Part shown: positions 3,159 through 60,878 of the stretch, one piece after another
Layout: the number at the start of each line of letters is the position of its first letter
Numbering within the stretch: position 1 is the stretch's first letter
Position numbers and translations under genes: made by a program
From: an uncultured Candidatus Saccharibacteria bacterium
GTDB taxonomy: Bacteria > Patescibacteriota > Doudnabacteria > UBA920
Reading direction: 5' to 3'
Length of the DNA stretch: 64,000 nt
Assembly: GCA_964434195.1 (NCBI GenBank)
Contig: CAYSUI010000004.1
Location: 4,245-68,244, forward strand
The notes under the pieces: model-generated
Told to the model about the DNA's origin: nothing
The model's database searches: none
Seen by the model: only the letters and a program-made list of their open reading frames with translations

Positions 3159-4223
3159 TTATACGAAAGCTTGATGCAGCAACCCTAAATACTGCTCTAC
3201 CCCACCAGGTGCATAACCTACGGCTACTTTATGTTCGCTTAACGAATCGAATTCAATGTCCATTTCACCAAATCGAGCCTCTTCACCAGGACGATGCGGT
3301 ACATCTACTATCCTGATAGGTGTAGGCGTGTAGATAAGATCCGGCTCTCCAATCGAGTCGCAGTAGAGTTTTGCGGTGAGCGCGAAATCATGTACCCAAA
3401 GCATTTCCGGAGAACCGCCTGGCTTAATGCGCGGGAGCACCGCGTTGTCATACCAAACCTGACTAAGTTCAGTAATAATATTGGCGCGTTCTGATCTGGG
3501 CAAAAATTCACGAAAATCATCGTTCGTATTGAATCCTACCGCAGGATTCCGAGTGGAATCGGACGTAATCAAGTATTTAGGAAAGCCTGATCCAACCGCG
3601 AACTGATACGTTGCTTCAGTATCACCATGAGCGTTAAATTGCTGCTTTTGGTTTCTGATACCACCGAAATCCATAAGCTTGACCGTGCCCAACGATCCTA
3701 GCATTGCGTAAGCTTTGATTATCTTAGCTTGGAGTGCCCGGTTAGCGCCGAACAGTTCCTTATAACCTGTTAACGGCCCTCCAGCAAGAAGCGGAAAGTC
3801 AGGACCGGATATCAGCATATCAGCAAGATCTGAGAGCGGAAGGAGCACTTTCTTACCCAATGCAACTTTATCATCAAATTTATACACACCCGGAATATCA
3901 TCAAATTTTTCCCATTCCTTGAGATGTACATGTTCTGGGACTAAGCTTGCTCGGGCTATACCCCCGTTATAAATTCTGACGTTTCCAAAACCCATACGGC
4001 TCACAAACGCATGCATACGGGCAGCATTTATAAACTGAACTTGTTCGGAAAACTCCAAATCAAACCTACTTTCTCCCTTCACCGGATTTGGATAGGTGGG
4101 CCTGCCCGTAAGTACGAAAAATATTTCAGTCTTCGGAAACAGCGCCGCAACCCCAGCGAGCTGAGCTGGATTGTCAAAATCCGTATTATCATTCAAAACA
4201 ACAATTCTGGGTATGTACCCCAT
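3159..4223 (-). CDS. hypothetical protein, compositionally atypical (GC-rich) orphan
   Basis: 354-aa ORF in a segment visibly richer in G+C than the flanks. Spurious ORFs overlap it on other frames, as expected for GC-rich DNA. It has its own terminator. No family recognised. Confidence 0.5.
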   Translation of the reverse strand: MGYIPRIVVLNDNTDFDNPAQLAGVAALFPKTEIFFVLTGRPTYPNPVKGESRFDLEFSEQVQFINAARMHAFVSRMGFGNVRIYNGGIARASLVPEHVHLKEWEKFDDIPGVYKFDDKVALGKKVLLPLSDLADMLISGPDFPLLAGGPLTGYKELFGANRALQAKIIKAYAMLGSLGTVKLMDFGGIRNQKQQFNAHGDTEATYQFAVGSGFPKYLITSDSTRNPAVGFNTNDDFREFLPRSERANIITELSQVWYDNAVLPRIKPGGSPEMLWVHDFALTAKLYCDSIGEPDLIYTPTPIRIVDVPHRPGEEARFGEMDIEFDSLSEHKVAVGYAPGGVEQYLGLLHQAFV

Positions 4224-6034: not shown

Positions 6035-6090
6035 GTCCCAAAGTTCTGTTTAAAAATAATTAAAATGATTTTCAAAAGACATCGGAACAG

Positions 6091-6272
6091 CTCGATTTCA
6101 GATTTTGAGATGAGATTTTAAGAAACGTTCAGTCAGAGTTCGATTTCAGATTTTGAGTGGATTTTTTTCGATTTTCGAGAAGTGAGCGGAGGCGTCCGCG
6201 GGGGGACGGTGTAGCGAGCCTCGGAGAAAATCGGAAAAAAACCGCCAAAATATGGAATCCCGTCAAAACAAG
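6091..6272. repeat. dispersed intergenic repeat, copy A (full length; contains an internal tandem 18-mer)
   Basis: TCGATTTCAGATTTTGAG occurs twice (6092-6109 and 6140-6157), then TCGATTTTCGAG, a GCGTCCG..GGGACGG hairpin, AAAATCGG and CGCCAAAATATGGAATCCCGTCAAAACA. It is homologous to copies at 20974, 42816, 47884, 55145 and 60703. Confidence 0.7.
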
Positions 6273-12524: not shown

Positions 12525-14273
12525 ATGCAAAACGAAATACTCCAAAATAAAAGACATTCACTCGCCCATCTCTTAGCCGCAGCAGTAATGGAATTATGGC
12601 CCAACACAAAACGTGCCATCGGCCCCGCTATCGACAACGGATTTTATTTTGACTTCGAATTTAAAGAACCTATAAACGAAAAGGATTTAGAAAAAATCGA
12701 AAAGAAAATGAGAGAAATATCCAAAAGCTGGACAACATTTGAAAGACACGAACTTACAGCTGAGGAAGCCAAAAAAGAGTACCCCAATAATCCATACAAA
12801 CACGAACTGATAAACGAGTTTACAAAAAACGGAGAAAAGGTAAGCTTTTATAAATCCGGTGAGTACTGGGATCTTTGCAAAGGTGGTCACACTGAGAACT
12901 TTAAAGACATAGTACCGAGTAGTTGGAAATTAGATAAGATCACTGGTGCATACTGGCGGGGCAATGCCGAAAACACTATGCTCACTCGCATCTATGGCTT
13001 AGCTTTCGAAACCAAAACTGAACTCGAAGATTATCTAAAAATGATCGAGGAAGCAAAAAAAAGAGACCATAAAAAACTAGGCCCCGCCCTAGACCTTTTC
13101 ACTTTCTCAGAATTGGTTGGTCCTGGCCTCCCGCTTTGGACACCTAAAGGCACCTTAGTAAGAAGCTTACTGGACGACTTCGTCTGGTCACTCAGAAAAG
13201 CTAAAGGTTACGAGAAAGTAGAAATCCCCCATATCACGAAAAAAGACCTCTACGAAACCAGTGGTCATTGGGACAAATTCAAAGACGAATTATTCCGTAT
13301 AAAAACTAGAGAAGGGCACGAATTTGCTATGAAACCCATGAATTGCCCTCACCACACGCAGATCTACGCCAGAAAACCACATTCGTACAAGCAACTTCCT
13401 GTTAGATTCGCAAATACAACTGTATGTTATAGAGACGAACAAACCGGTGAACTCTCAGGATTATCCAGAGTAAGAGCATTCGCACAAGACGACGCCCATG
13501 TCTTCTGTAGAAATACTCAGGTCAAAAAAGAAATGGAAGCGGTTTGGGACATTATAGAAAGTTTTTATACTAGCTTCGGATTCAAATTAGAAGTAAGACT
13601 CTCTTTTCACGACCCTGAACAAAAGGAAAAATATTTAGGCTCTAGTGAAAACTGGGAATTCGCAGAATCACAACTTAAAAAATTAGTCGAGGATAGAAAA
13701 GCTAACGCTGAAATAGTCCCCGGTGAGGCAGCATTTTATGGTCCTAAAATAGATTTTCTAGCCCATGACTCCATAGGAAGACGCTGGCAAGTAGCAACAA
13801 TCCAAATGGACATGAATATGCCAGAACGTTTCAATTTAAATTGTATTAACGAAGAAGGAAAAGAAGAGAGGGTCGTAATGATACATGCAGCAATAATGGG
13901 TTCGATAGAAAGATTTCTATCCATATTCATTGAACATTCAGCCGGCAACTTCCCACTTTGGCTTGCCCCAGTCCAACTTGCAATCCTACCCATCTCTGAC
14001 AAATTCAATAACTACGCCAAACAAGCAAAAGAGGAGCTAGAACAACACCTAAAAAACCTCAGAATCGAAATTGACGACAGAAGCGAATCTATAGGCAAAA
14101 AAATTCGCGAATCAACTATCTCAAAAATCCCCTACCAAATAATAGTTGGCGAAAAAGAAGAACAAAACCACACTCTATCTGTCCGCGCAAGAAATGGCGA
14201 AGATTTAGGTACTAAAGGAATACCAGAATTCGCTAAACACTTGCAATCAGAAATTGAAAGCAAATCTAACTAA
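12525..14273 (+). CDS. thrS: threonine--tRNA ligase (lacks the N-terminal TGS domain; starts at the editing domain)
   Basis: 582 aa. HSLAHLL...IGPAIDNGFYFDFEF aligns with the E. coli ThrRS editing domain from about residue 70. Class II motifs, the zinc ligands and the C-terminal anticodon-binding domain are present. Confidence 0.9.
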   Translation: MQNEILQNKRHSLAHLLAAAVMELWPNTKRAIGPAIDNGFYFDFEFKEPINEKDLEKIEKKMREISKSWTTFERHELTAEEAKKEYPNNPYKHELINEFTKNGEKVSFYKSGEYWDLCKGGHTENFKDIVPSSWKLDKITGAYWRGNAENTMLTRIYGLAFETKTELEDYLKMIEEAKKRDHKKLGPALDLFTFSELVGPGLPLWTPKGTLVRSLLDDFVWSLRKAKGYEKVEIPHITKKDLYETSGHWDKFKDELFRIKTREGHEFAMKPMNCPHHTQIYARKPHSYKQLPVRFANTTVCYRDEQTGELSGLSRVRAFAQDDAHVFCRNTQVKKEMEAVWDIIESFYTSFGFKLEVRLSFHDPEQKEKYLGSSENWEFAESQLKKLVEDRKANAEIVPGEAAFYGPKIDFLAHDSIGRRWQVATIQMDMNMPERFNLNCINEEGKEERVVMIHAAIMGSIERFLSIFIEHSAGNFPLWLAPVQLAILPISDKFNNYAKQAKEELEQHLKNLRIEIDDRSESIGKKIRESTISKIPYQIIVGEKEEQNHTLSVRARNGEDLGTKGIPEFAKHLQSEIESKSN

Positions 14274-14275
14274 AC

Positions 14276-14312
14276 TTAAAAAACAGCATGGATCACCTTG
14301 CTGTTTTTTAAA
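14276..14312. terminator. bidirectional terminator between convergent thrS and rarA
   Basis: AACAGCA-uggaucaccu-UGCUGUU hairpin flanked by an A-run and a U-run. It overlaps the rarA stop. Confidence 0.55.
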
Positions 14313-19714: not shown

Positions 19715-20350
19715 TTATTTAGAGGTATTTTTAACTTTTTCTAAATATTTATCAATAGTCAAAAAAATTCGTTGTTTTACTTCAGTCTTATTACCTAAAC
19801 CACTTACCTTTTTAAATTGGTACTGTTGTTTAAAAAAATCGATAACCTGAGAGACATTCGTCCGATAATAAGCTACTCTATTTTTTAACGCCTCGACAGA
19901 ATCATCTGCCCTTTTCCCAAATTTACCTTCAAAATACCCAACTCTTTTATGCATCCGAGTTATGGTTTCTTTGGTAGGAATACTCAAATAAATTACTATG
20001 GGATTACTTCTTCCCTGCTCTTTGAGTAATTTACTTACAAGCTTAGCTTCACCGAGCATTTTAGGATGACCATCAAACAATATCCCCTTTTCCTTTGGAC
20101 ACTCACTAATTTTATCTCTCAATATTTGTCTTACAATTTGCGTAGGAGACAAATTACCCTTATCAGTGTTCTGTTTTAAAACTTCATCTACCTGCTTATC
20201 TTTTGACCTCAGAACAGTCAATTCTTTACCCATGTCAAAATCATACAGGTCATACTTTCTAGTTAAAAAACTAGCCTGAGTAGCTTTCCCAGCAGCTGGG
20301 TCCCCTATCAGTATTATGTTAATTGGATTCTTTGTCTTCTCTTCCTTCAA
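19715..20350 (-). CDS. adenylate kinase-family nucleoside monophosphate kinase (second paralog)
   Basis: P-loop IILIGDPAAGKATQA at the N-terminus. NMP-kinase fold lacking the LID zinc motif. It overlaps the upstream adk by 32 nt. Confidence 0.6.
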   Translation of the reverse strand: MKEEKTKNPINIILIGDPAAGKATQASFLTRKYDLYDFDMGKELTVLRSKDKQVDEVLKQNTDKGNLSPTQIVRQILRDKISECPKEKGILFDGHPKMLGEAKLVSKLLKEQGRSNPIVIYLSIPTKETITRMHKRVGYFEGKFGKRADDSVEALKNRVAYYRTNVSQVIDFFKQQYQFKKVSGLGNKTEVKQRIFLTIDKYLEKVKNTSK

Positions 20351-20912
20351 GTGCGTAATTTATTTGTTCAGTAACCATTTCGATTTCAGGTGAACCGTCA
20401 ATCGTAATAAAAGTAGTTTTCTCTCTTAAAAAATCCAAAACCGGAACTGTTTGTTTCTCATACATGGACAATCTCATCTCTATACTCTCTTTATTATCAT
20501 CCACACGACCTTCTTTTTCTGCCCTAAGTAACAACCTTTTAATCGATTCTTCCTTAGGTAAATCTATAAAAATGGTCACCATTTTCTGCTTATTGTTTTT
20601 CTCCAAAAACGACAACAAATGCACAGCCTGTCCCAACTGCCTAGGCACACCATCAAATACCAAACCCTTCTCACTCATTAAACCTGGAAGCTTCTCATCC
20701 AATATTTCTAAGATCACCTGGTCAGGAACCAAAATACCTGCATCTAACAGCACTTTTATCTTTTTACCCAATACAGAATTTTCTTTCCCAATTTCTCTTA
20801 AAATTCCACCCATCTCCCAAAAATAAAAACCAAGCTTGGTGGCTAGCAGCCGAGCTTGCGTCCCCTTCCCACTCCCTTGAGGTCCTATAAAAAAAATCAC
20901 ATCAAACTTCAT
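20319..20912 (-). CDS. adk: adenylate kinase
   Basis: The start at MKFDVIFFIGPQGSGKGTQA (20912) is preceded by RBS GGGGAG. The track's 13-codon 5' extension is rejected. Typical Adk motifs. Confidence 0.8.
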   Translation of the reverse strand: MKFDVIFFIGPQGSGKGTQARLLATKLGFYFWEMGGILREIGKENSVLGKKIKVLLDAGILVPDQVILEILDEKLPGLMSEKGLVFDGVPRQLGQAVHLLSFLEKNNKQKMVTIFIDLPKEESIKRLLLRAEKEGRVDDNKESIEMRLSMYEKQTVPVLDFLREKTTFITIDGSPEIEMVTEQINYALEGREDKESN

Positions 20913-20973
20913 CTCCCCGATAATAAGCCATCCCCCCATTTTTTGCAACACTTATCTCTCCTGAAAAAAGTAC

Positions 20974-21110
20974 GCATTGCAGATTTTGGTTCAGATTGCA
21001 CGATCTTTTTCGATTTTTTTACGCAAGCGTCCGTGACGGGACGATGGAGTAAAAAAATCCAAAAAATCGTGCGAGCTGGAGCAAAATATGCGATGCCATA
21101 GCCACAAAAC
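20974..21110. repeat. dispersed intergenic repeat, copy B
   Basis: GCATTGCAGATTTTGGTTCAGATTGCAC...TTCGATTTTTTTACGCAAGCGTCCGTGACGGGACG...AAAAAATCGTGCGAGCTGGAGCAAAATATGCGATGCCATAGCCACAAAACA. Aligns with copy A along its whole length. Confidence 0.7.
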
Positions 21111-21151
21111 ACAAAACCAAAGGAAAAGGCTGCATGTGGGGTTCATGCAGC
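21108..21151 (-). terminator. intrinsic terminator of the GC-rich gene 21204..22625; its U-tract is supplied by the end of repeat copy B
   Basis: GGCUGCAUG-aaccccac-CAUGCAGCC (perfect 9-bp stem) followed on the minus strand by UUUUCCUUUGGUUUUG. Confidence 0.55.
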
Positions 21152-21203
21152 CAAAGTGTTGTGTGTGTACTTATGTTGAGCACAATTTTTTTCTTATTGT
21201 CGA

Positions 21204-22625
21204 TTATGAGATCAGGTCACGACCCCCTTCAGCCGTGCCCAGATCGCGAAAGAAATAACCAAGGATTGGACTCCTCGCGCAGTATTCCCTCACACTGGCC
21301 CAAATCCTGCTTGTTGCTGGCTCATCTCTGGTAATCCGGTAAGCATCCTCAGTTTTCAGGTACGCCTTTCTGTCACGCACCCACGAACGCCATAGAGCTA
21401 AATCGTTCTGGACTTGTGGATCACTCTCACGAGTAGCGGTATGATATGCGATCGCAGCTTCCAGGAAGTCTGCTTCGGTGTAGTCAAGATAGGCATCGTT
21501 TACTGCAAACCAGGCCCTAGGATAAGGATCGACATCGCTTGCTTCCCGCATAACATATTCACCCGCCGTATGATCACTCACAATTCCATTCTCCTTAAGG
21601 TAATCATGAATTCGATCATTAATCTTCAAAGGATTTGTATCAGGGGTTAGCCCATCTGAGGTTTGGGCCTCAGGTTTCTCGATTCTGTCTTTGGACTTGA
21701 TCTCGTCCGAAATGAACTTGTAGAAGCAACTTTTGGGGTTGCTCAGGAATTCAGGATTAGTTTCGACCCGGTTCTTGCGGGCAATCAGGAGCATCATCTC
21801 ACGAGCCATTTTAGCAAACACGAGATTTGCAGTCTTTAAAGTCTCGAAGTCGCTTTCAAGCGAGCCACTCGCAACCAGAGTCTGGTTGCCGTCAAAGGAT
21901 TCTTTCCAGGCGCGAAATGTAACGCGCACCGGTGTAAACTGCACAGGCATCTTCTTCTCGGGTGCAAAGCCGGTAGCCTTGCGGAACTCGCTCATAACTT
22001 TCTTAGCAGTAGGCAGGTCCTTTTTACGACCGAAACGCTTGGGCTTCTCAGGGAAACCAAGGTACAACAGAAGGTCGTAGGGACGCATCATCGCCAATTC
22101 CTCGTCCGCCTCACCTACACTGAAAACCTCAGGGTATTCGGTTTCCAACCAAGAAATATATTCAGGATTGGACTGCGATCTGGTAAGCGAGAACTCGATA
22201 CCTGTTTCCAGGTCGAACTCCACGAAAGTCGTTTCCGTACTCGGCGCATAAGGCGTCTTATACTGACGACCACTCGGTGTAATACCGGGTTTCGAATTCG
22301 GTGAATAAACTTTCCCGCGCTTACTTTGCGCGACATTCACCAAATGGTTCGCGAGCATCTTATTGTTCCGAAACCCTTCGTCGTAAATGAAGTAAAACGA
22401 ATCATGCTCCAAATCGAACTCTTTCTGTGTCCGGTTAGCCGAATTAATAAGCGCTGGCCCGAATTTTCGGACCAAAGAATAACTGGCGACAGACAGACCA
22501 CCAATAACTACCGAAGCAGGTAAAGCTACCTGCGGCCAAGGCAAACTCTTGAAAGTTTCCCAAGCATCAACGACCTGTTTCGTAGCAGTGGGATCAGCCA
22601 GAAGAAATAATTCTTTGCTCAACAT
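21204..22625 (-). CDS. hypothetical protein with N-terminal TM helix, compositionally atypical (GC-rich) orphan
   Basis: 473-aa ORF in a ~1.4-kb segment of clearly higher G+C. Many overlapping spurious ORFs on other frames. Flanked by repeat copy B and a hairpin-containing spacer. No family recognised. Confidence 0.5.
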   Translation of the reverse strand: MLSKELFLLADPTATKQVVDAWETFKSLPWPQVALPASVVIGGLSVASYSLVRKFGPALINSANRTQKEFDLEHDSFYFIYDEGFRNNKMLANHLVNVAQSKRGKVYSPNSKPGITPSGRQYKTPYAPSTETTFVEFDLETGIEFSLTRSQSNPEYISWLETEYPEVFSVGEADEELAMMRPYDLLLYLGFPEKPKRFGRKKDLPTAKKVMSEFRKATGFAPEKKMPVQFTPVRVTFRAWKESFDGNQTLVASGSLESDFETLKTANLVFAKMAREMMLLIARKNRVETNPEFLSNPKSCFYKFISDEIKSKDRIEKPEAQTSDGLTPDTNPLKINDRIHDYLKENGIVSDHTAGEYVMREASDVDPYPRAWFAVNDAYLDYTEADFLEAAIAYHTATRESDPQVQNDLALWRSWVRDRKAYLKTEDAYRITRDEPATSRIWASVREYCARSPILGYFFRDLGTAEGGRDLIS

Positions 22626-22892
22626 ATCGATACCTCCGTAAATCTCAATCTTTGTTTTTGATGACTACTTTTTTGCTAGAAAAACTCTTTAGCGTCCTAT
22701 AAAGCCTTCTAACACGTTCACGCAAGCTTATCCGTGAACGTTTTAAATCATTGAAATCTTGAAGTTAAACCACAAAAATTGCCTTTTGGCACCTTTCTGT
22801 TACTGGCTAAACCTAATAAAGACTTCCGCTGACTATACCTAGTATAGAAAGGATTGTCAAATAATTTCTCAAGAACAAATATTCGATTCTTA

Positions 22893-22921
22893 TTGACAGA
22901 AACCCAAATTTTCCGTATTAT
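22893..22921 (+). promoter_or_regulatory. near-consensus sigma70 promoter for gene 22955 (TTGACA-17-TATTAT), followed by RBS GGAGG
   Basis: TTGACA at 22893-22898, a 17-nt spacer, and TATTAT at 22916-22921. GAGGAGG lies 6 nt before the ATG. Confidence 0.55.
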
Positions 22922-22954
22922 CACGAATTCAATTTAACACCTGAGGAGGTAATA

Positions 22955-23743
22955 ATGATGTTCTCAAAACTACGACTTTTTTTCCTAATTCTGATACTGG
23001 CAACCACACTTCAAATTGCAATTACTTCACCCAGTATTATCACAAACCAAGTCGATTTATTTTTCAAGCTCTATCAAGCAGAGAAGGAAAAGTCTCTCAT
23101 TGCTGAATTAAGAAAAAAAGAGAAAGAAAGAGCAGAACAGGAAAGAATCCCAACAGACCAGACAAAACCCATTCTACTACCCTCACCATCGCCTACCCCC
23201 ATAACAGCAACCTTATCCATAAACTTCCCCATTACTTCTGGTAGCTTGGAAAATACCTTCGTCGGTAACCTAATCTCTCGTATTCCATCTGATAAAATCA
23301 GCCACTGCGAAGGGATTACCAATTTCACCCTAAATGGATCACAATACGAAGCCTTCCCTTCTGACGAGAACACAATTCTCAGAAGAAAGCGATTCGAACA
23401 CAATCCTGAATACGAAACTTTAATAATATCTGGTGAAGGGAAAATTCTGAAACGTATTAAGTTTGAGACTAACCCTGAAACTCCTATTAGCGTCACCATA
23501 TTCAGTCCAAGAAAAAAAGGTGAGCCACCTCAAGTGAATACATCTTTTAACTCTCAATTCTCCTATGTAGGATTTAGGGTAAAAATTTCTGAACCACGGA
23601 AAATCTTCCTAAACTACTCTGGTATTGAAATTACAAGTTTCCTATTGGATGATATCGAAAGCTGGCTTTTGGAAAAATCCAATCCTAACAAATGGGAAAC
23701 AAGCCTAAATCCAACTATCAAAGATTATAAAAAACGCAGATAA
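22955..23743 (+). CDS. secreted hypothetical protein (signal peptide, Pro/Thr-rich linker)
   Basis: Strong promoter and RBS. N-terminal signal MMFSKLRLFFLILILATTLQIAITSP. A terminator follows. Confidence 0.55.
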   Translation: MMFSKLRLFFLILILATTLQIAITSPSIITNQVDLFFKLYQAEKEKSLIAELRKKEKERAEQERIPTDQTKPILLPSPSPTPITATLSINFPITSGSLENTFVGNLISRIPSDKISHCEGITNFTLNGSQYEAFPSDENTILRRKRFEHNPEYETLIISGEGKILKRIKFETNPETPISVTIFSPRKKGEPPQVNTSFNSQFSYVGFRVKISEPRKIFLNYSGIEITSFLLDDIESWLLEKSNPNKWETSLNPTIKDYKKRR

Positions 23744-23764
23744 AAAATCTGCGATATTTTTTTG
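23735..23764 (+). terminator. intrinsic terminator of gene 22955
   Basis: GCAGAU-aaaaa-AUCUGC followed by U7. Confidence 0.55.
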
Positions 23765-23790
23765 AAAAAAAATTAACCCTATCCAGGGTT
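23763..23790 (-). terminator. intrinsic terminator of gene 23779..24462
   Basis: Minus strand AACCCU-ggau-AGGGUU followed by U8. Confidence 0.5.
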
Positions 23791-24462
23791 TTCTGCAGCA
23801 AGTTCTATCTCATTCCCATGAACCGACGTTGGTTCCACGACTTGAGAAGCAACTGTTATATTATCCTGCGGGAAAGCCATACCTTCATCGACTAGCATAG
23901 ACCAGGAAACTATCGGGATCCCATCCGACGTCTCTAAACCTGAAAAATTTGGCTCAGAATAAAATGCTAGCTGGACATTTTCTACTTGTACCTGACTCAG
24001 CTTATCAGCGTATACATAAGCATAAACCTGAGAAAATGCTAGCTTCAAATCTCTAATCAACCAAATCAACAAATTTATCAATGGTCTAAATATTGGGGCC
24101 AAAGTTTCTAAATACAACTCATTAATTGACTGTGCCAACGAAATTTTTTCATGAATGAATTCTTGTTGTGGACTTTTCAATTTCTCAAGAACTGTAATCA
24201 TCTGCTCTTCCGTGTATTGATGATCACAAATTCCACAATATAAAGAATAATATAGAATTTCACCTTTCTTATTCACGATCCGAGTAATTATCACTTGAAG
24301 ATTTGGCCACAAATACTGACTCTTATGACCATAGGGACATTCAGGTTTTGACCTAGATTTCCAGTACCTTACTTTACAAGCAGAACATGCCCCATTAAGC
24401 TCATTTAAATGTATATTTACACCGCATTTACAAACTGCTTTTTCTTCCATTTTTTCCTCCAT
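23779..24462 (-). CDS. hypothetical Cys-rich protein (possible zinc-binding N-terminus)
   Basis: CKCG...CSACK...CPYGH...CGICDH pattern. No family recognised. Confidence 0.4.
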   Translation of the reverse strand: MEEKMEEKAVCKCGVNIHLNELNGACSACKVRYWKSRSKPECPYGHKSQYLWPNLQVIITRIVNKKGEILYYSLYCGICDHQYTEEQMITVLEKLKSPQQEFIHEKISLAQSINELYLETLAPIFRPLINLLIWLIRDLKLAFSQVYAYVYADKLSQVQVENVQLAFYSEPNFSGLETSDGIPIVSWSMLVDEGMAFPQDNITVASQVVEPTSVHGNEIELAAENPG

Positions 24463-24562
24463 AAAATTTCCGGTCTCAAATCTCTTAAATATAGCGTTTT
24501 ATGATATAATGGTCTAGTCTGAAAAATACAAGTACCTAGAGAAACAAAAAACCAAAATTCAC

Positions 24563-26248
24563 GTGCATTCTATTTTTTTTGAAATTACACTAGCGTTAAT
24601 TTTAGCCGGAGCAATCGCGGTAATTGTTAGTTTTTTTAAACAACCCAGCATTCTCGCATATATACTTACCGGTCTAATACTTGGCCCACTTGGTCTCTCC
24701 AAACTTTCTGAAGGAGACTCTCTTAAAGGCTTATCTGAAATAGGTGTGACACTTTTACTATTTATGGTGGGCTTAGAGCTAGACGTAACAGAACTAAAAA
24801 AAATCGGAAAAACAGCAAGTATCGCAGGAGTGCTACAAATCCTAGTCACGACTTTACTCGGGTTTACCATAGCCAAATTCCTAGGATTTGATTCACTTAA
24901 GAGCATCTACTTAGGTCTTGCTCTCACTTTCTCTTCCACAATAATTGTAGTTAAACTGCTTTCAGAGAAAAAAGACCTACAGTCTCTTTATGGAAAATTA
25001 GCTGTAGGCATATTTGTTATACAAGATATCGTAGCAATCTTTATTCTCGTATTCCTACAAGGATTAAACAGCACCGCAGGCAACTTACCTCTAAACTTTC
25101 TTTACACACTAATAAAGTTAATTTGCTTACTTTTAATAATTTACCTCCATAGTAAATTTATTTTTCCATTAGTCCTAAAAACTGTAAGCAAATCACAGGA
25201 ACTTCTTCTAGTTTTTTCTCTTGCCTGGGCTCTCGGCTTTGCTGCCTTAACGGCGTTACCATTAGTGGGTTTCAACCTAGCAATTGGAGGATTTCTGGCT
25301 GGGGTAGCTCTCGCAAACACAGCAGTTCACTATGAGATAAGCGCTAAGATAACCCCACTCAGAGATTTCTTTATAATGTTGTTCTTTATAGTACTTGGTT
25401 CCCAATTAATATTCAGTGGTTGGCAAAATGTCGTTATACCTAGTATTACTTTTTCAACTTTCGTTCTTATTGGTAACCCTATAATCGTACTAGTAATACT
25501 GGCTTTGCTAGGTTTTAAACCCAGAACTGCATTTTTCACCGGATTCACTGTCGGCCAAATTTCCGAATTTAGTTTAATCCTTGCCACTTTAGGACTTAGC
25601 CTTAACCACATAACCCAAAATGAGTTAAGCATAATTACCTTCACCGGAATTGCCACTATCGCTATTTCTTCTTATCTAATCCTTCACACTCGTCAAATCT
25701 ACGAAAAAACGAAACACCTAATTTCATGGCTGGATTTTAAAAAAGGTTCTGCGGAAAAAAACCTAAAAAGATCAGTCTTAAAAAATCACTTTATACTAAT
25801 CGGCGCCCACCGTCTTGGTAGTAGAGTCATAGAATCGCTCTCTCATTTAAAAACAGAATTTGTAGTTATAGATTTCAATCCAGACATAATAGAAAAACTA
25901 GAAGCCAAAGGATTTAACGCCATATGCGGCGACATAACCGATCCTTATATTCAAGACCTTGCTAATATTAAAAAGGCTAAATTAATTATCTCCACCTTAC
26001 CGAATATGTTCGACACACTTTCCCTAATTGAAGCAATTGAAGCAACAAATTCTAAAGCTAAATTCATAGTCACAGCTAGAGACGAAGCAGAAGCCTTAAA
26101 ACTATACGAACACCAAGCAGACTACGTCTTACTCCCCCACTTTATTGGCGCAGACCACTTAAAACAAATTCTAGAAAATAAAAACACCAATACAAACCTA
26201 AAACACCTGAAAGTAAGACACGTAAAACAACTAGCGCACGTAAGTTAG
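24563..26248 (+). CDS. cation:proton antiporter (CPA2/Kef-type) with C-terminal RCK/TrkA-N domain
   Basis: 12-13 TM helices (LILGPLGLS, EIGVTLLLFMVGLELD) and a C-terminal Rossmann domain (FILIGAHRLGSRV). Confidence 0.75.
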   Translation: MHSIFFEITLALILAGAIAVIVSFFKQPSILAYILTGLILGPLGLSKLSEGDSLKGLSEIGVTLLLFMVGLELDVTELKKIGKTASIAGVLQILVTTLLGFTIAKFLGFDSLKSIYLGLALTFSSTIIVVKLLSEKKDLQSLYGKLAVGIFVIQDIVAIFILVFLQGLNSTAGNLPLNFLYTLIKLICLLLIIYLHSKFIFPLVLKTVSKSQELLLVFSLAWALGFAALTALPLVGFNLAIGGFLAGVALANTAVHYEISAKITPLRDFFIMLFFIVLGSQLIFSGWQNVVIPSITFSTFVLIGNPIIVLVILALLGFKPRTAFFTGFTVGQISEFSLILATLGLSLNHITQNELSIITFTGIATIAISSYLILHTRQIYEKTKHLISWLDFKKGSAEKNLKRSVLKNHFILIGAHRLGSRVIESLSHLKTEFVVIDFNPDIIEKLEAKGFNAICGDITDPYIQDLANIKKAKLIISTLPNMFDTLSLIEAIEATNSKAKFIVTARDEAEALKLYEHQADYVLLPHFIGADHLKQILENKNTNTNLKHLKVRHVKQLAHVS

Positions 26249-28474: not shown

Positions 28475-28498
28475 AAAAACACGTTTTCCGTGTTTTAG
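28473..28498. terminator. bidirectional terminator between cysS and the GC-rich gene 28495..29850
   Basis: ACACG-uuuuc-CGUGU flanked by A7 and U4. Confidence 0.5.
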
Positions 28499-29850
28499 CT
28501 TATTCCCATAAGCTTCATAAGAAGTTCGTAGTTGCCTCTGACTTTTTCAGGTCTCGGTAATCTGAATTTGGAAGATCCTGAAATCTTGTAAAACTGAATC
28601 GGCGCAGTATGGTATTTGGCGTTGCCATTTTCCATTTCAATTTCCGGCTCTCCTTTGAACATAAAAGCATTCGCCTCTGGAGGCGCTATCCTCTTAATCT
28701 CTTTCATGTCGAACCGGAAGAACACGTAATGCCCACCAATTTCAGTTCTAAAAACCTGAACCTCACCAACCGGGGTTATGTCCTCGATTAAATACTCTGG
28801 TGTGTAAGTACTCATTGAATCACCCTTCTTGCCGTAATGAGTAAAATACCGCCCAGCATATTCCATAACCTGATAAAACCCAAAAGGCTTCTCATTTGCA
28901 GGTTCAAGCAGACTCTCCCAGTTCTGCTCGATCAAACCCTCAACATCATCAGGTCCAGGGTGAATATTTTGGAATCTCTCAGGAGTATTAACACCCACAA
29001 ACCGAGTTCCATCATTCCAGGAGTGGCAACTAACGTCGGTCACAAGCGACCTATGTTGTTCATGGTTCATAGACTGTAGTTGTCCTATAGAGAGCAGGTT
29101 AGCAAATGCCAGACCCGGCTCAGCAATCCGGTCAAAAAACCTATACAAAGGTCCGTCCTTTATGGATATTAGAAACGGGTCTGAATATGGTTTCGCAAAC
29201 TCTCTATGCATCGCCCGTCGCCTTACGCAGTACTCTTCATGACCAGCAAGCCCGTAGCGATTTTCTGGATCTTTCTGAGATTCTTCAGCGTGCCACTTTC
29301 TAGCATACTCAAGGTGAAAATCTAAATACTCCTTGTACCAACCACCAAGCCTCGCCCGGACCATTGGGTCGCACTCTGCCTCAGAATAACGAAGGATCGA
29401 AAGAAAAGAAAACTCGTAGCGATCCAGGTATTCCTCCAAATCGACCACATAAACTTTCCCATAAAAACCATCTTCCAATTTCCTGAACTCGTCGAGTGTA
29501 ATGCGCCCTCCCTCGACTCTCGTGTTTTTAGCTTGGTAACTGTGTGCATAGGCTTTCATTATTCCGGTCTTATCCGCCATTGGACCAACCCCATGAGCAA
29601 CAATCGCAATTAGCCTACCACCCTTACTCCTTCCAACAAATTCAGAAGAGTTAGTAGTAAAGTATCGCACCCAAGGCGTGCTATCTAAACCAGTCGCAAG
29701 TCTTGCTCGAATAATATCGGGCAAAGTAGCAACTCTACCTTCGTTACCTGCAAATTTCTTTGCATCCTCATAGGAGGGAACAAATCCATCACCATGGTAA
29801 AAAGCCATCGCTTGAGGCTTCTCTAACTCGCTATTTTTCCTCGTATTCAT
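28495..29850 (-). CDS. hypothetical protein, compositionally atypical (GC-rich) orphan
   Basis: 451-aa ORF in a GC-rich segment with many shadow ORFs. No TM helix. No family recognised. Confidence 0.5.
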   Translation of the reverse strand: MNTRKNSELEKPQAMAFYHGDGFVPSYEDAKKFAGNEGRVATLPDIIRARLATGLDSTPWVRYFTTNSSEFVGRSKGGRLIAIVAHGVGPMADKTGIMKAYAHSYQAKNTRVEGGRITLDEFRKLEDGFYGKVYVVDLEEYLDRYEFSFLSILRYSEAECDPMVRARLGGWYKEYLDFHLEYARKWHAEESQKDPENRYGLAGHEEYCVRRRAMHREFAKPYSDPFLISIKDGPLYRFFDRIAEPGLAFANLLSIGQLQSMNHEQHRSLVTDVSCHSWNDGTRFVGVNTPERFQNIHPGPDDVEGLIEQNWESLLEPANEKPFGFYQVMEYAGRYFTHYGKKGDSMSTYTPEYLIEDITPVGEVQVFRTEIGGHYVFFRFDMKEIKRIAPPEANAFMFKGEPEIEMENGNAKYHTAPIQFYKISGSSKFRLPRPEKVRGNYELLMKLMGIS

Positions 29851-29987
29851 TTTTAACCTTTCCTTTTTCTGGTTTCAGGTTCATACACCCACAGGCCGAA
29901 TTGCCTGCGGAACCCATTTTATATCACAAACCGCACTATTTTTCAAATACCCCGATACCACCTAACTATGTTAAAATACTCAAACCT

Positions 29988-42796: not shown

Positions 42797-42815
42797 TTAA
42801 TCTCTTACTATTATA

Positions 42816-42880
42816 GCTCGATTGCAAATTTTGATTGCAGATTAGTCGATTTTCGAGCACTTCGACGGAAGGACTCCCTG
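42816..42880. repeat. dispersed intergenic repeat, partial copy E (left module only)
   Basis: GCTCGATTGCAAATTTTGATTGCAGATTAGTCGATTTTCGAGCAC is near-identical to the left module of copy C (GCTCGATTCCAAATTTTAAGAGCAGTTTCACCGATTTTCGAGTAC). Confidence 0.6.
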
Positions 42881-42893
42881 AATAGACATGCTA

Positions 42894-44249
42894 CTAATTT
42901 TTTGGTTTTATTACTTCGAATCCTGTCCATTTTCTAAGTACTTCGGGTACTATTACACTACCATCTTGTTGTTGATACGTTTCTAAAATTGGAATTAATA
43001 TTCTAGGACTAGCAACTGCTGTGTTATTAAGCGTATAAACATATCGTATTTTTCCTGAAGAATCCTTATATCGAATACCTAAACGTCTACTTTGCCAATC
43101 TGTTAAACTGCTATCACTATGCGTTTCACCATAACTTGCCCTAGAAGGCATCCAAGTCTCTATGTCATACATTTTATACTTTCCAGCACCCATATCTCCT
43201 GTGCACACATGTATTACACGATAAGGAAGTTTTAAATCCTGTAATATCTCTTCTGCAACCTCTCGTAAATTTTCCAACCACTGATCAGCCTCATTAATGT
43301 CTGCCTTACACAAAACAACCTGTTCAACTTTCTGGAATTCATGAATTCTGTAAATACCCCTTGTATCCTTACCATAACTCCCTACCTCGCTCCTAAAACA
43401 AGACGAAACACCCGCAAGTTTAATTGGCAAATCTTTTTCTTCTAGCACTTGATCCTGATAATACGCAAGTAAACTGGGCTCACTTGTCCCTGCTAAAAAA
43501 GTAGGCTCCTCTTCAGAAAACTTTCCATTCTTCACTGAGCCACTACTAGCTACCTGATAAATCTCATCTCTACCTGTTGGAAAATGTCCACTACCTAACA
43601 ATGCCGATTCTCTCACTAAAACAGGTGGCACCATCAAAGTGAACTCTCTCTTTCTCAATTTTTCCAATGCCAAACTTACCAATGCTTGCTGAATTAAGAC
43701 AGCCTCGTTTTTTAAATAATACCCCCTAAATCCAGATGTTTTTACACCAGCTTCAGTATCTATAATATCCAAACTCTTACCCAATTCCACATGGTCCTTT
43801 ATTGGGAAATTATATACAGAAGGTACTTTTGCAACATTTTCAGTATCTTTAGGATCTACAACCCCAAGAGGAGGTGACCAGTACTTCCATGGAATATTCT
43901 CTGCATCGCTTTTCCCAACTGGGGTTTCAGGAGCGGGAATATTTGGCACTAAATACATCAGATATTCAAACCTTTCAGTAACTGTTCTAAGTTTTTCTTT
44001 TAGCTCACTCTGCCTAAAGTCTACCTCTTTCATCTCAAGCAGCTTTACCTTCTTTTCCTCCGCAGACAAATTAGGTAACTCTTTAGAAACATTATTTTTT
44101 GTAGCTGCTAATTCTTCAACTTCTACTAGCAAAGTCCTTCTTTCAGAGTCTACATCCAATAATTCATCCAAACTCAAATCAACTCTTTTGTCGATTATTG
44201 CTTTCTTAACCTTCTCAACATTTTCACGAATATATTTTATATCAAGCAT
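42894..44249 (-). CDS. serS: serine--tRNA ligase
   Basis: N-terminal coiled-coil arm and class II motifs. Confidence 0.9.
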   Translation of the reverse strand: MLDIKYIRENVEKVKKAIIDKRVDLSLDELLDVDSERRTLLVEVEELAATKNNVSKELPNLSAEEKKVKLLEMKEVDFRQSELKEKLRTVTERFEYLMYLVPNIPAPETPVGKSDAENIPWKYWSPPLGVVDPKDTENVAKVPSVYNFPIKDHVELGKSLDIIDTEAGVKTSGFRGYYLKNEAVLIQQALVSLALEKLRKREFTLMVPPVLVRESALLGSGHFPTGRDEIYQVASSGSVKNGKFSEEEPTFLAGTSEPSLLAYYQDQVLEEKDLPIKLAGVSSCFRSEVGSYGKDTRGIYRIHEFQKVEQVVLCKADINEADQWLENLREVAEEILQDLKLPYRVIHVCTGDMGAGKYKMYDIETWMPSRASYGETHSDSSLTDWQSRRLGIRYKDSSGKIRYVYTLNNTAVASPRILIPILETYQQQDGSVIVPEVLRKWTGFEVIKPKN

Positions 44250-47810: not shown

Positions 47811-47883
47811 TTATAATATTGAAAAATAATGCCCTAACTATACCAAAAACCCTTGTCCAAGTCAATGTTCTTTTCTTAATTTG

Positions 47884-48012
47884 GCTCGATTCCAAATTTT
47901 AAGAGCAGTTTCACCGATTTTCGAGTACGACCCTGGGGTGTCTATGATTAGGACCATTAAGGGACGCGCAAAGAAAATCGCTGAAAATGCGCCAAAATAT
48001 TCAACCCCTCAC
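47884..48012. repeat. dispersed intergenic repeat, copy C
   Basis: GCTCGATTCCAAATTTTAAGAGCAGTTTCACCGATTTTCGAGTACGACCCTGGGG...GGGACGCGCAAAGAAAATCGCTGAAAATGCGCCAAAATATTCAACCCCTCAC. Confidence 0.65.
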
Positions 48013-60652: not shown

Positions 60653-60702
60653 ACATGAATTCCAAACGTCATGCGCCAACGAATTACATATTTTGTATGT
60701 AG

Positions 60703-60878
60703 TTTCGTCGATTTTTGAGTACGGCCCTGAAGCGACCGTGATTGGGAAAAAGCGAAGTATTTATGAAAGGATCCGGCATGCCGGTCCTGGAATAAAGACT
60801 ATTCCCTACGGTGAAAGGGCGTACGGAAAAAACGGCGAAAATACACAAAATATGCGATCCCGTCGCTTTTGCAAAAAC
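60703..60878. repeat. dispersed intergenic repeat, copy D (full length, with a palindromic CCGGCATGCCGG insertion)
   Basis: TCGATTTTTGAGTACGGCCCTG...CGGAAAAAACGGCGAAAATACACAAAATATGCGATCCCGTCGCTTTTGCAAAAAC. Its right end runs into the RBS of gene 60892. Confidence 0.65.

What the first reader, a model, noticed from the sequence alone, without database searches (positions are those of the whole stretch)
21108..22954. GC-rich single-gene insert 2: 473-aa TM-anchored orphan protein flanked by a dispersed repeat and a hairpin spacer
The gene 21204..22625 is the most GC-rich block in the window. It encodes a protein with one N-terminal TM helix and a large soluble domain of no recognisable family. 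Its 3' end abuts repeat copy B, whose terminal CCACAAAACACAAAACCAAAGG doubles as the U-tract of the gene's terminator hairpin (21127-21151). Upstream at 22626-22954 lies a 330-nt spacer with a perfect 9-bp hairpin AACGUUCACG..GUGAACGUU (about 22718-22752). Next comes the strong promoter of a divergently transcribed secreted protein (22955). The insert's composition and boundary structure look like an acquired module. Its juxtaposition with a secreted protein and a Cys-rich protein (23779) may define a small accessory island between adk and the antiporter gene.
Basis: partly seen in the sequence, partly recalled or inferred. Interest (0 to 1): 0.55.

Follow-up and report, generated by a model that had tools for sequence, protein, structure and literature searches.

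The report
Foreign orphan membrane-protein gene in islet
A GC-rich gene for a 473-residue protein with no known relatives is a real, selected gene that was acquired from outside and sits in a three-gene insertion unique to one narrow lineage of ultra-small (Patescibacteria) bacteria; this kind of event is common, and the protein's function remains unknown.

Summary
ORF 21204..22625 (-) is the strongest compositional outlier in the window. Its GC is 0.485 and GC3 0.515, against gene means of 0.378 and 0.326. Its tetranucleotide distance has z = 6.25 and ranks 1 of 313 windows. Its third-position C is three times that of other minus-strand genes.

It is a real gene. Against the one diverged allele, dN/dS is 0.10 overall and 0.065 in the deeply diverged 5' half. 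It has a GGAGG ribosome-binding site, a near-consensus promoter and a conserved intrinsic terminator.

It is an orphan. It has no Pfam, NCBIfam, PHROG, PADLOC, PDB, phage, plasmid or IMG/VR match. In 5.8 billion proteins the only homologue is a 91% identical allele. AlphaFold models were unusable.

In 30 relatives the antiporter and adk1 genes are 43-430 bp apart. Only this lineage carries 3.6 kb with three orphan genes there.

The flanking "dispersed repeat" is a ~125-nt palindromic hairpin element. Its other copies lie between core genes, so it does not mark island borders.

Function is unknown. The best guess is a lineage-specific, membrane-tethered accessory protein. This is an ordinary kind of finding, now well documented.

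The parts
21204..22625 (-). 473-aa orphan protein gene (ORPH473). It has a marginal N-terminal TM segment at aa 31-52. The rest is soluble, with a mixed alpha/beta N-terminal half and a mostly helical C-terminal half, though that description comes from low-confidence models.
   Evidence: ORF. GC 0.485, GC3 0.515. Tetranucleotide z 6.25. dN/dS 0.10 overall and 0.065 in codons 1-240. Only homologue is a 91% identical allele. Hydropathy.
22633..22637 (-). Shine-Dalgarno GGAGG, 7 nt upstream of the ATG at 22625
   Evidence: Sequence. Conserved in L006 and L001.
22626..22831 (-). Inferred structured 5' UTR of the orphan gene, about 200 nt
   Evidence: Lies between the predicted -10 box and the ATG. 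Folds at -55.1 kcal/mol, z -4.15. About 93% identical to L006.
22714..22741 (-). Perfect 9-bp hairpin with a 10-nt loop inside the inferred 5' UTR
   Evidence: In L006 and L001 the single arm change gives U-G on the minus-strand RNA but A-C on the plus strand.
22832..22860 (-). Promoter-like site for the orphan gene: TTGACA-17-TATAGT, 11 of 12 matches
   Evidence: Both hexamers invariant in L006 and L001.
22893..22921 (+). Divergent promoter-like site for sec262: TTGACA-17-TATTAT, 11 of 12 matches
   Evidence: Conserved in L006 and L001.
21102..21152 (-). Intrinsic terminator of the orphan gene: 9-bp stem at 21128-21152 plus a U-rich tract at 21102-21127
   Evidence: Stem invariant in L006 and L001; the only change is a 1-nt deletion in the loop in L001.
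20972..21097 (.). Copy B of a ~125-nt imperfect-palindrome dispersed repeat (long hairpin), between the terminator and adk1
   Evidence: nhmmer E 4e-23. Fold -62.3 kcal/mol, z -10. miRNA-precursor-like Rfam hits on both strands, all below their gathering scores. Arms co-vary within copies.
22955..23743 (+). sec262: 262-aa orphan with an N-terminal signal-like hydrophobic segment. Second gene of the islet.
   Evidence: dN/dS 0.28. Host-like composition.
23779..24462 (-). cys227: 227-aa Cys-rich orphan with one internal hydrophobic segment. Third gene of the islet.
   Evidence: dN/dS 0.23. Host-like composition.
20952..24562 (.). The whole lineage-specific 3.6-kb interval between adk1 and the Na+/H+ antiporter gene
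   Evidence: The gap is 43-430 bp in 30 relatives and about 3.6 kb only in the window's lineage.

Best explanation
ORF 21204..22625 is a real protein-coding gene of foreign origin. It forms a self-contained, monocistronic transcription unit. On the minus strand, in order, this unit has:
- a near-consensus sigma-70-type promoter (22860..22832);
- a structured 5' UTR of about 200 nt containing a 9-bp hairpin;
- a GGAGG ribosome-binding site;
- 473 codons;
- a stem-loop plus U-tract terminator (21152..21102) that insulates it from the downstream adk1-adk2-map operon.

The gene lies in a 3.6-kb, three-gene islet (cys227, sec262, ORPH473). The islet was inserted into the short divergent intergenic region between the Na+/H+ antiporter gene and adk1 in one narrow Patescibacteria (Doudnabacteria-like) lineage.

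Shown: the composition anomaly, purifying selection, absence from the syntenic site in relatives, and absence of any detectable homologue.

Inferred: the donor was an unsampled organism or element with roughly 50% GC or more. The product is a single-pass, membrane-tethered accessory protein. Its large acidic domain is more likely cytoplasmic, because the positive-inside rule gives 3-4 Lys/Arg just after the TM against 2 before it. Its biochemical function cannot be assigned. The palindromic repeat next to it is a genome-wide intergenic element and is not part of the insertion mechanism.
For: Composition: highest GC and GC3 of 56 ORFs. Tetranucleotide z 6.25, rank 1 of 313. Coding-strand C3 is 0.23 against about 0.08 in all other minus-strand genes, so the gene is not equilibrated to the host's strand-specific bias. 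The GC step is sharp at both ORF ends.

Real gene: against the L006 allele there are 101 synonymous and 45 non-synonymous differences, giving dN/dS 0.10. In codons 1-240, dS is 1.04 and dN/dS 0.065. The SD, promoter hexamers and terminator stem are conserved.

Insertion: in 30 relatives nhx and adk1 are 43-430 bp apart with no gene between them. The three genes occur together, and only in the window's lineage.

Orphan status.

Local precedent: a second GC-rich single gene (28495..29850) is present in the window but absent from L006. HGT islands are documented in Patescibacteria (PMC12455944).

TM and topology.
Against: No donor or homologue was found anywhere, so HGT rests on composition plus phyletic pattern only.

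There is no integrase, tRNA, target-site duplication or terminal inverted repeat at the gene or islet borders.

The nearest relatives that lack the islet are distant (Map protein 67% identity or less). The time of insertion is therefore poorly bounded, and loss in other lineages cannot be formally excluded.

dS of about 1 in the 5' half, with GC3 still at 0.46-0.53, is hard to reconcile with simple amelioration. It may require selection on composition or repeated import by recombination.

The TM call is marginal (KD 1.64). Both AlphaFold models are unusable, with pLDDT 34.5 and 31.0. Promoter and terminator are consensus matches only.
Confidence: 0.72

Rival explanations
1. Phage- or mobile-element-derived 'moron'. 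The gene, with its own promoter and terminator, was delivered by a Patescibacteria phage or integrative element that has since decayed, and it serves a phage-type accessory role such as superinfection exclusion or surface modification.
For: The promoter-gene-terminator architecture is what defines morons. Orphan genes are often attributed to viral sources (background, listing). There is a very weak hit to PHROG 14839, E 0.048.
Against: No match in INPHARED phages, IMG/VR viral contigs or PADLOC. No phage or integrase genes in the 20 kb around it. No att-like repeats.
Confidence: 0.12
2. Native origin. The gene arose in this lineage, de novo or by divergence beyond recognition of a resident gene. 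Its GC-richness would then reflect selection, for example on expression level or mRNA structure, or GC-biased repair in a recombination hot region.
For: The locus is a mosaic of recombination blocks. High GC3 persists despite dS of about 1. The two neighbouring orphans, sec262 and cys227, are compositionally native.
Against: The tetranucleotide signature correlates only 0.26 with the host. C3 is three times that of co-oriented genes. Other recombination blocks, such as 24700-25300 in nhx, are not GC-rich. A 473-codon ORF at dN/dS 0.065 is unlikely to be a young de novo gene.
Confidence: 0.1
3. The three-gene interval is ancestral and was deleted in the other sampled relatives, rather than inserted here.
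For: There is a large phylogenetic gap between carriers and the nearest non-carriers: Map identity 95% against 67% or less. Patescibacteria genomes are streamlined. Three other relatives have 0.6-1.1 kb of unrelated extra DNA at the same site.
Against: About 30 diverse relatives share the tight nhx-adk1 junction, and many independent losses would be needed. There are no remnants of the three genes in any relative, even in a relaxed tblastn: no hit with E < 1 (search run at E <= 10). Foreign composition argues for gain.
Confidence: 0.05
4. Not a functional gene: a chance ORF or a pseudogenised remnant.
For: No homologues and no confident structure prediction.
Against: dN/dS 0.065-0.10 over 146 differences. 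The ORF is intact in all 12 contigs and 3 alleles. SD, promoter and terminator are conserved.
Confidence: 0.01

Closest known systems
Horizontally acquired ORFan genes in small genomic islets (genomic islands and individually transferred genes reported in Patescibacteria, PMC12455944)
   Same: Atypical GC, codon and oligonucleotide composition. Presence in one narrow lineage at a site that is a tight gene junction in relatives. No detectable homologues. Maintained by purifying selection.
   Different: No mobility genes, tRNA target or flanking repeats. Only one of the three islet genes is compositionally foreign. The donor is unknown.
Phage 'morons' (autonomous promoter-gene-terminator cassettes)
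   Same: A single gene with its own strong promoter and intrinsic terminator, different in composition from its surroundings.
   Different: It is not embedded in a prophage, and it has no phage homologues in PHROGs, INPHARED or IMG/VR.
ERIC / REP / MITE-type intergenic palindromic repeats (for the flanking repeat)
   Same: About 125 nt, imperfect palindrome folding into one long hairpin, several dispersed copies, all in intergenic spacers between co-directional genes.
   Different: No sequence similarity to any Rfam family at gathering score. Restricted to this lineage. Target-site duplications and a cognate transposase were not examined. One copy (60672) has lost the long hairpin.
Rho-independent terminators
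   Same: A 9-bp G+C-rich stem with a 7-nt loop and a U-rich tail, 51 nt after the stop codon, conserved in the sister allele.
   Different: The U-tract is interrupted (UUUUCCUUUGGUUUU). Function was not tested.

Membership tests
Horizontally acquired genomic islet | Composition (GC, GC3, oligonucleotide signature) deviates from the host genome | tested here: met
   GC z 3.1 and GC3 z 3.6. Tetranucleotide z 6.25, rank 1 of 313; C3 0.23 against about 0.08. Met for ORPH473 only, not for sec262 or cys227.
Horizontally acquired genomic islet | Absent from the syntenic position in related genomes | tested here: met
   The nhx-adk1 gap is 43-430 bp with no gene in 30 relatives. There are no remnants.
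Horizontally acquired genomic islet | Mobility signatures at borders (integrase or transposase, tRNA, direct repeats) | tested here: not met
   No tRNA in the window. No significant flanking direct or inverted repeats. Neighbouring genes are housekeeping genes.
Horizontally acquired genomic islet | Identifiable donor lineage or homologues elsewhere | tested here: not met
   Only the 91% allele was found among 5.8 billion and 1.84 billion proteins. Nothing in phages, plasmids, IMG/VR or JGI contigs.
Functional protein-coding gene | Purifying selection in the annotated frame | tested here: met
   dN/dS 0.10 overall and 0.065 in codons 1-240, where dS is 1.04.
Single-pass (bitopic) membrane protein | One hydrophobic segment of about 19 or more residues above the hydropathy threshold | tested here: inconclusive
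   KD19 maximum is 1.64 at aa 33-52, just above 1.6. The segment is conserved between alleles, but no dedicated TM predictor or experiment was available.
Rho-independent terminator | G+C-rich stem-loop followed by a U-tract, downstream of the stop codon on the coding strand | tested here: met
   Site 21152..21128 with tail UUUUCCUUUG. The stem is invariant in L006 and L001. Termination activity cannot be tested here.
Phage moron | Located within a prophage or phage genome | tested here: not met
   No phage genes in the flanks. No phage database hits.
MITE / ERIC-like palindromic repeat (flanking element) | Multiple dispersed intergenic copies that fold as a long imperfect hairpin | tested here: met
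   Five copies in 64 kb. Fold z-scores for copy B are -8 (minus strand) and -10 (plus strand); other copies range from about -5 down to non-significant (-1.1). Self-arm duplex energies are lower than cross-copy energies for copies B and 6131 (-63 and -54 against -21 to -36 kcal/mol); copy 47879 shows no such excess, and copy 60672 forms only weak duplexes (-2 to -12) because it lacks the long hairpin.
MITE / ERIC-like palindromic repeat (flanking element) | Target-site duplications and a cognate transposase (MITE sensu stricto) | not tested
   Copy ends were not examined for TSDs, and the complete genome was not available.
ZP-N / VERL repeat (from the P0002 and PDB 5iia hits) | Significant single-domain similarity with the conserved Cys pattern | tested here: not met
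   One 53-aa stretch with E 0.02-0.24. The E 2e-36 is the sum of 20 weak repeat matches. The query has a single Cys in that region.
Patescibacteria family of the other GC-rich insert (g451) | Profile-profile homology | tested here: not met
   hhalign probability 0.9%, despite a pairwise BLASTP E of 0.004.

The most novel reading that the evidence does not exclude
ORPH473 may be the first sampled member of a new protein family and fold. It would circulate in an unsampled, higher-GC gene pool, such as Patescibacteria phages or the host bacteria of these episymbionts. In this lineage it would be kept under strong selection as a membrane-tethered factor for host interaction or phage resistance. 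The adjacent ~125-nt palindromic element would then be a new lineage-specific structured repeat family in a streamlined CPR genome.
Probability: 0.15. Interest if true: 0.5.

Novelty: new member of a known kind. Interest (0 to 1): 0.27.

Why it matters
The finding gives a clean, well-bounded example of gene gain in a streamlined Patescibacteria genome. One foreign gene with complete expression signals, plus two native-looking orphan envelope genes, were inserted into what is a conserved gene junction in relatives, and all are kept under purifying selection. Lineage-specific envelope proteins of this kind are candidates for the host-attachment or niche functions that distinguish closely related episymbionts. 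Without a fold or any homologues, the protein's role is untestable in silico. The phenomenon itself, an HGT islet carrying an ORFan, is already well known.

Tried and rejected
1. Family assignment. Pfam, PHROGs, NCBIfam and PADLOC gave nothing.

2. PDB sequence search. Only marginal chance-level hits to TFB2, VERL and Cox6.

3. The E 2e-36 hit to P0002. This is a 3722-aa abalone VERL-like repeat protein. The score is 20 weak repeat matches added together, so I rejected it as spurious.

4. AlphaFold2. The single-sequence and two-sequence runs gave pLDDT 34.5 and 31.0. I therefore ran no fold search, because the matches would be meaningless.

5. Homology between ORPH473 and the other GC-rich insert, g451. 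A BLASTP E of 0.004 suggested it. It was rejected by hhalign against a 34-sequence profile, probability 0.9%.

6. The 99% identity of the 252-nt ORPH-adk1 spacer with L006. This first looked like extreme non-coding constraint. The sliding-window comparison shows it lies inside a 1.1-kb near-identical recombination block, 20809-21908, so it is not evidence of selection on the repeat.

7. Flanking direct repeats as target-site duplications. TTCTTATTGTC and TTCTTATTGAC lie at 21191 and 22887. By my own rough uniform-composition estimate, about 65 such 11-mer pairs with one mismatch or fewer are expected by chance in 4 kb, so I rejected this.

8. Repeat copies as island borders. Other copies sit between ftsW, serS, Mur ligase, folD, greA and miaA, and none flanks g451. 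Rejected.

9. Other searches. Phage, plasmid, IMG/VR and JGI-contig searches for relatives found none. Rfam gave no family at gathering score; the only hits were sub-threshold miRNA-precursor-like hits that reflect the long hairpin.
Full report
**What is there**

The window comes from a low-GC (0.379) Patescibacteria genome. The methionine aminopeptidase next to the locus is 95% identical to that of MAG contig CAYLIB010000007. It is 57-67% identical to about 40 MAGs that are mostly labelled Doudnabacteria or, by automatic pipelines, Saccharibacteria.

ORF 21204..22625 on the minus strand encodes 473 aa.
- The terminator stem is at 21128-21152, followed on the minus strand by UUUUCCUUUGGUUUUGUGUUUUGUGG.
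- The spacer hairpin is ACGTTCACG / CGTGAACGT at 22714-22741.
- A copy of a dispersed repeat lies at 20972-21097.
- The C/A-rich tract that supplies the U-tract (21102-21123) lies outside the part of the repeat shared with the other copies. It adjoins the repeat rather than belonging to it.

**Composition**

Among 56 ORFs the gene has the highest GC (0.485; mean 0.378, sd 0.035) and the highest GC3 (0.515; mean 0.326, sd 0.053). Its tetranucleotide distance from the window signature has z = 6.25, ranks 1 of 313 windows of equal length, and correlates only 0.26 with that signature.

The host shows a strong strand-specific third-position skew. Minus-strand genes have G3 of about 0.22 and C3 of about 0.08; plus-strand genes show the mirror image. 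The orphan gene lies on the minus strand but has C3 of 0.23, so it has not equilibrated to the host's mutational regime.

The GC step coincides with the two ORF ends. The neighbouring sec262 and cys227 are compositionally host-like.

**Is it a gene?**

Yes. There are two diverged allele types. One is the window type, found on 8 contigs. The other is the L006 type, found in L006 and L082-L085, with L001 differing from it by 8 nt.

Between the two types there are 101 synonymous and 45 non-synonymous differences, giving dN/dS 0.10. The divergence is mosaic. Codons 1-240 have dS 1.04 and dN/dS 0.065. Codons 240-474 have dS 0.075.

That pattern belongs to a locus-wide mosaic of blocks at 73-100% identity, which indicates homologous recombination between diverged lineages. 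The same mosaic explains why the 252-nt spacer carrying the terminator and repeat is 99% identical between lineages. It sits in a 1.1-kb near-identical block, so I do not read that identity as non-coding constraint.

**Expression signals**

- A GGAGG box lies 7 nt before the ATG.
- A minus-strand TTGACA-17-TATAGT site lies at 22860..22832. It is back-to-back with the plus-strand TTGACA-17-TATTAT site of sec262. Both match 11 of 12 consensus positions.
- All four hexamers are invariant in L006 and L001, while the sequence between the two -35 boxes has accumulated substitutions.
- The inferred 5' UTR of about 200 nt folds better than shuffles, z = -4.15.
- The single arm substitution in its 9-bp hairpin in L006 gives a U-G pair on the minus-strand RNA but an A-C mismatch on the plus strand. 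This is weak evidence that the hairpin acts in the orphan gene's mRNA.
- The terminator stem is invariant, and the only variation is in the loop.

The gene is thus a self-contained monocistronic unit upstream of the adk1-adk2-map operon. These are consensus-level inferences; no transcript data were available.

**Orphan status**

No Pfam, PHROG, NCBIfam or PADLOC family matched. The word-indexed search of 5.8 billion proteins and the full HMMER scan of 1.84 billion representatives returned only the 91-92% identical allele.

The scan also returned a spurious E 2e-36 hit to a 3722-aa VERL-type repeat protein. Its score is the sum of 20 weak matches to one 50-aa stretch.

Nothing matched in INPHARED phages, PLSDB plasmids, IMG/VR or JGI contigs. 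AlphaFold2 gave unusable models, with pLDDT 34.5 and 31.0, so I did not attempt a fold search. sec262 is likewise an orphan. The cluster containing cys227 holds only this lineage.

**Synteny**

In 30 relatives the order is dnaB - cysS - nhx(-) | adk1(+) - adk2 - map. The nhx-adk1 divergent spacer is 43-430 bp and contains no gene.

Only the window's lineage has 3.6 kb there, holding cys227, sec262 and ORPH473. Every contig that carries one of these genes carries all three. A relaxed tblastn finds no remnant of them in any relative.

Three other relatives have unrelated extra DNA of 0.6-1.1 kb at the same junction. One of these includes a 257-aa ORF with no Pfam match. The site therefore seems permissive for insertions.

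Because only ORPH473 is compositionally foreign, the islet probably assembled in more than one step, but no genome with a partial islet was found to prove this.

**The repeat**

The dispersed repeat is an imperfect palindrome of about 125 nt. Rfam reports only sub-threshold miRNA-precursor-like hits on both strands, which is the signature of a long hairpin.

Copies B, 6131 and 47879 fold as single long hairpins. Copy B has z = -10. For copies B and 6131, each copy's left arm pairs far better with its own right arm than with other copies' right arms: -63 and -54 kcal/mol against -21 to -36. The arms of those two copies therefore co-vary. Copy 47879 shows no such excess, and copy 60672 lacks the long hairpin.

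The five copies all lie in spacers between co-directional genes: ftsW and a 181-aa gene, serS and a Mur ligase, folD and greA, miaA and a 198-aa gene. None flanks the other GC-rich insert. None occurs in about 1.3 Mb of relatives' loci.

It is an ERIC/REP/MITE-like intergenic element of this lineage and not an island border marker.

**Mechanism and limits**

Best-supported reading, confidence about 0.72: a horizontally acquired gene is expressed from its own promoter, terminated before adk1, and maintained by strong purifying selection.

It encodes a protein tethered to the membrane by one marginal N-terminal helix (Kyte-Doolittle 1.64, conserved between alleles). The positive-inside rule, with 3-4 Lys/Arg right after the helix against 2 before it, mildly favours a cytoplasmic location for the large acidic domain. 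I consider this about 60:40 at best.

The biochemical function cannot be assigned.

One unexplained tension remains. dS of about 1 in the 5' half coexists with GC3 of 0.46-0.53. This implies a much more GC-rich ancestor, selection on composition, or import of one allele's 5' half by recombination from another carrier.

**Assessment**

HGT-derived islands and singly transferred genes are already documented in Patescibacteria (PMC12455944). ORFans are commonplace in these genomes. It is a new member of a known kind and of modest interest.

Noticed in passing
window 28475-29965 (ORF 28495..29850, minus strand): A second GC-rich single-gene insert: 451 aa, GC 0.447, C3 0.16, no Pfam match. It is absent from the 95%-related genome L006, where cysS and dnaB are about 88 nt apart. 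The protein belongs to an uncharacterised family of about 100 members, apparently confined to Patescibacteria, with the nearest homologue at only 45% identity. It is not homologous to the 473-aa orphan (hhalign probability 0.9%).
   Followed up: partly
window 11000-31100 against L006: Identity to the sister lineage alternates between blocks of 73-88% and 96-100% every 0.5-1.5 kb. For example, nhx has a 5' part at 99-100% and a 3' part at 80-85%. This is a mosaic typical of homologous recombination between diverged Patescibacteria populations.
   Followed up: partly
window 6131-6261, 20972-21097, 42809-42900, 47879-48008, 60672-60800 (plus a partial copy at 6089-6131): A lineage-specific family of imperfect palindromic repeats of about 125 nt that form long hairpins. 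In copies B (20972) and 6131 the two arms co-vary within the copy. All copies lie in spacers between co-directional core genes. The family is absent from 75 relatives' loci and from Rfam.
   Followed up: partly
window 19715-20951 (minus strand) and loci L007-L046: Two adenylate-kinase-family paralogues, 31% identical to each other, lie in tandem with a 32-nt overlap just upstream of map. The pair is conserved in about 40 relatives. SecY, which usually precedes adk, is replaced at this junction by a divergent Na+/H+ antiporter gene.
   Followed up: no
whole window: There is a very strong strand-specific third-codon-position skew. Minus-strand genes have G3 of about 0.22 and C3 of about 0.08, and plus-strand genes show the reverse. 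GC skew is negative across all 64 kb. This makes orientation-aware composition a sensitive detector of foreign genes in this genome.
   Followed up: partly
window 3159-4223 (minus strand): The third compositional outlier: 354 aa, GC 0.459, GC3 0.417, C3 0.18. It has only a sub-threshold match to inosine-uridine nucleoside hydrolase (E 1e-3).
   Followed up: no
L027:3163-4243, L007:7853-8755, L013:7892-8492: Three other relatives carry unrelated extra DNA of 0.6-1.1 kb in the same nhx-adk1 spacer. L027 has a 257-aa ORF with no Pfam match. This suggests the junction is a recurrent insertion site.
   Followed up: partly
window 14264-14300 against L006:15366-16102: L006 has about 0.7 kb between thrS and the mgsA-like gene that the window lacks. 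L082 and L084 call a 178-aa gene in this region. This is another strain-variable spot.
   Followed up: no
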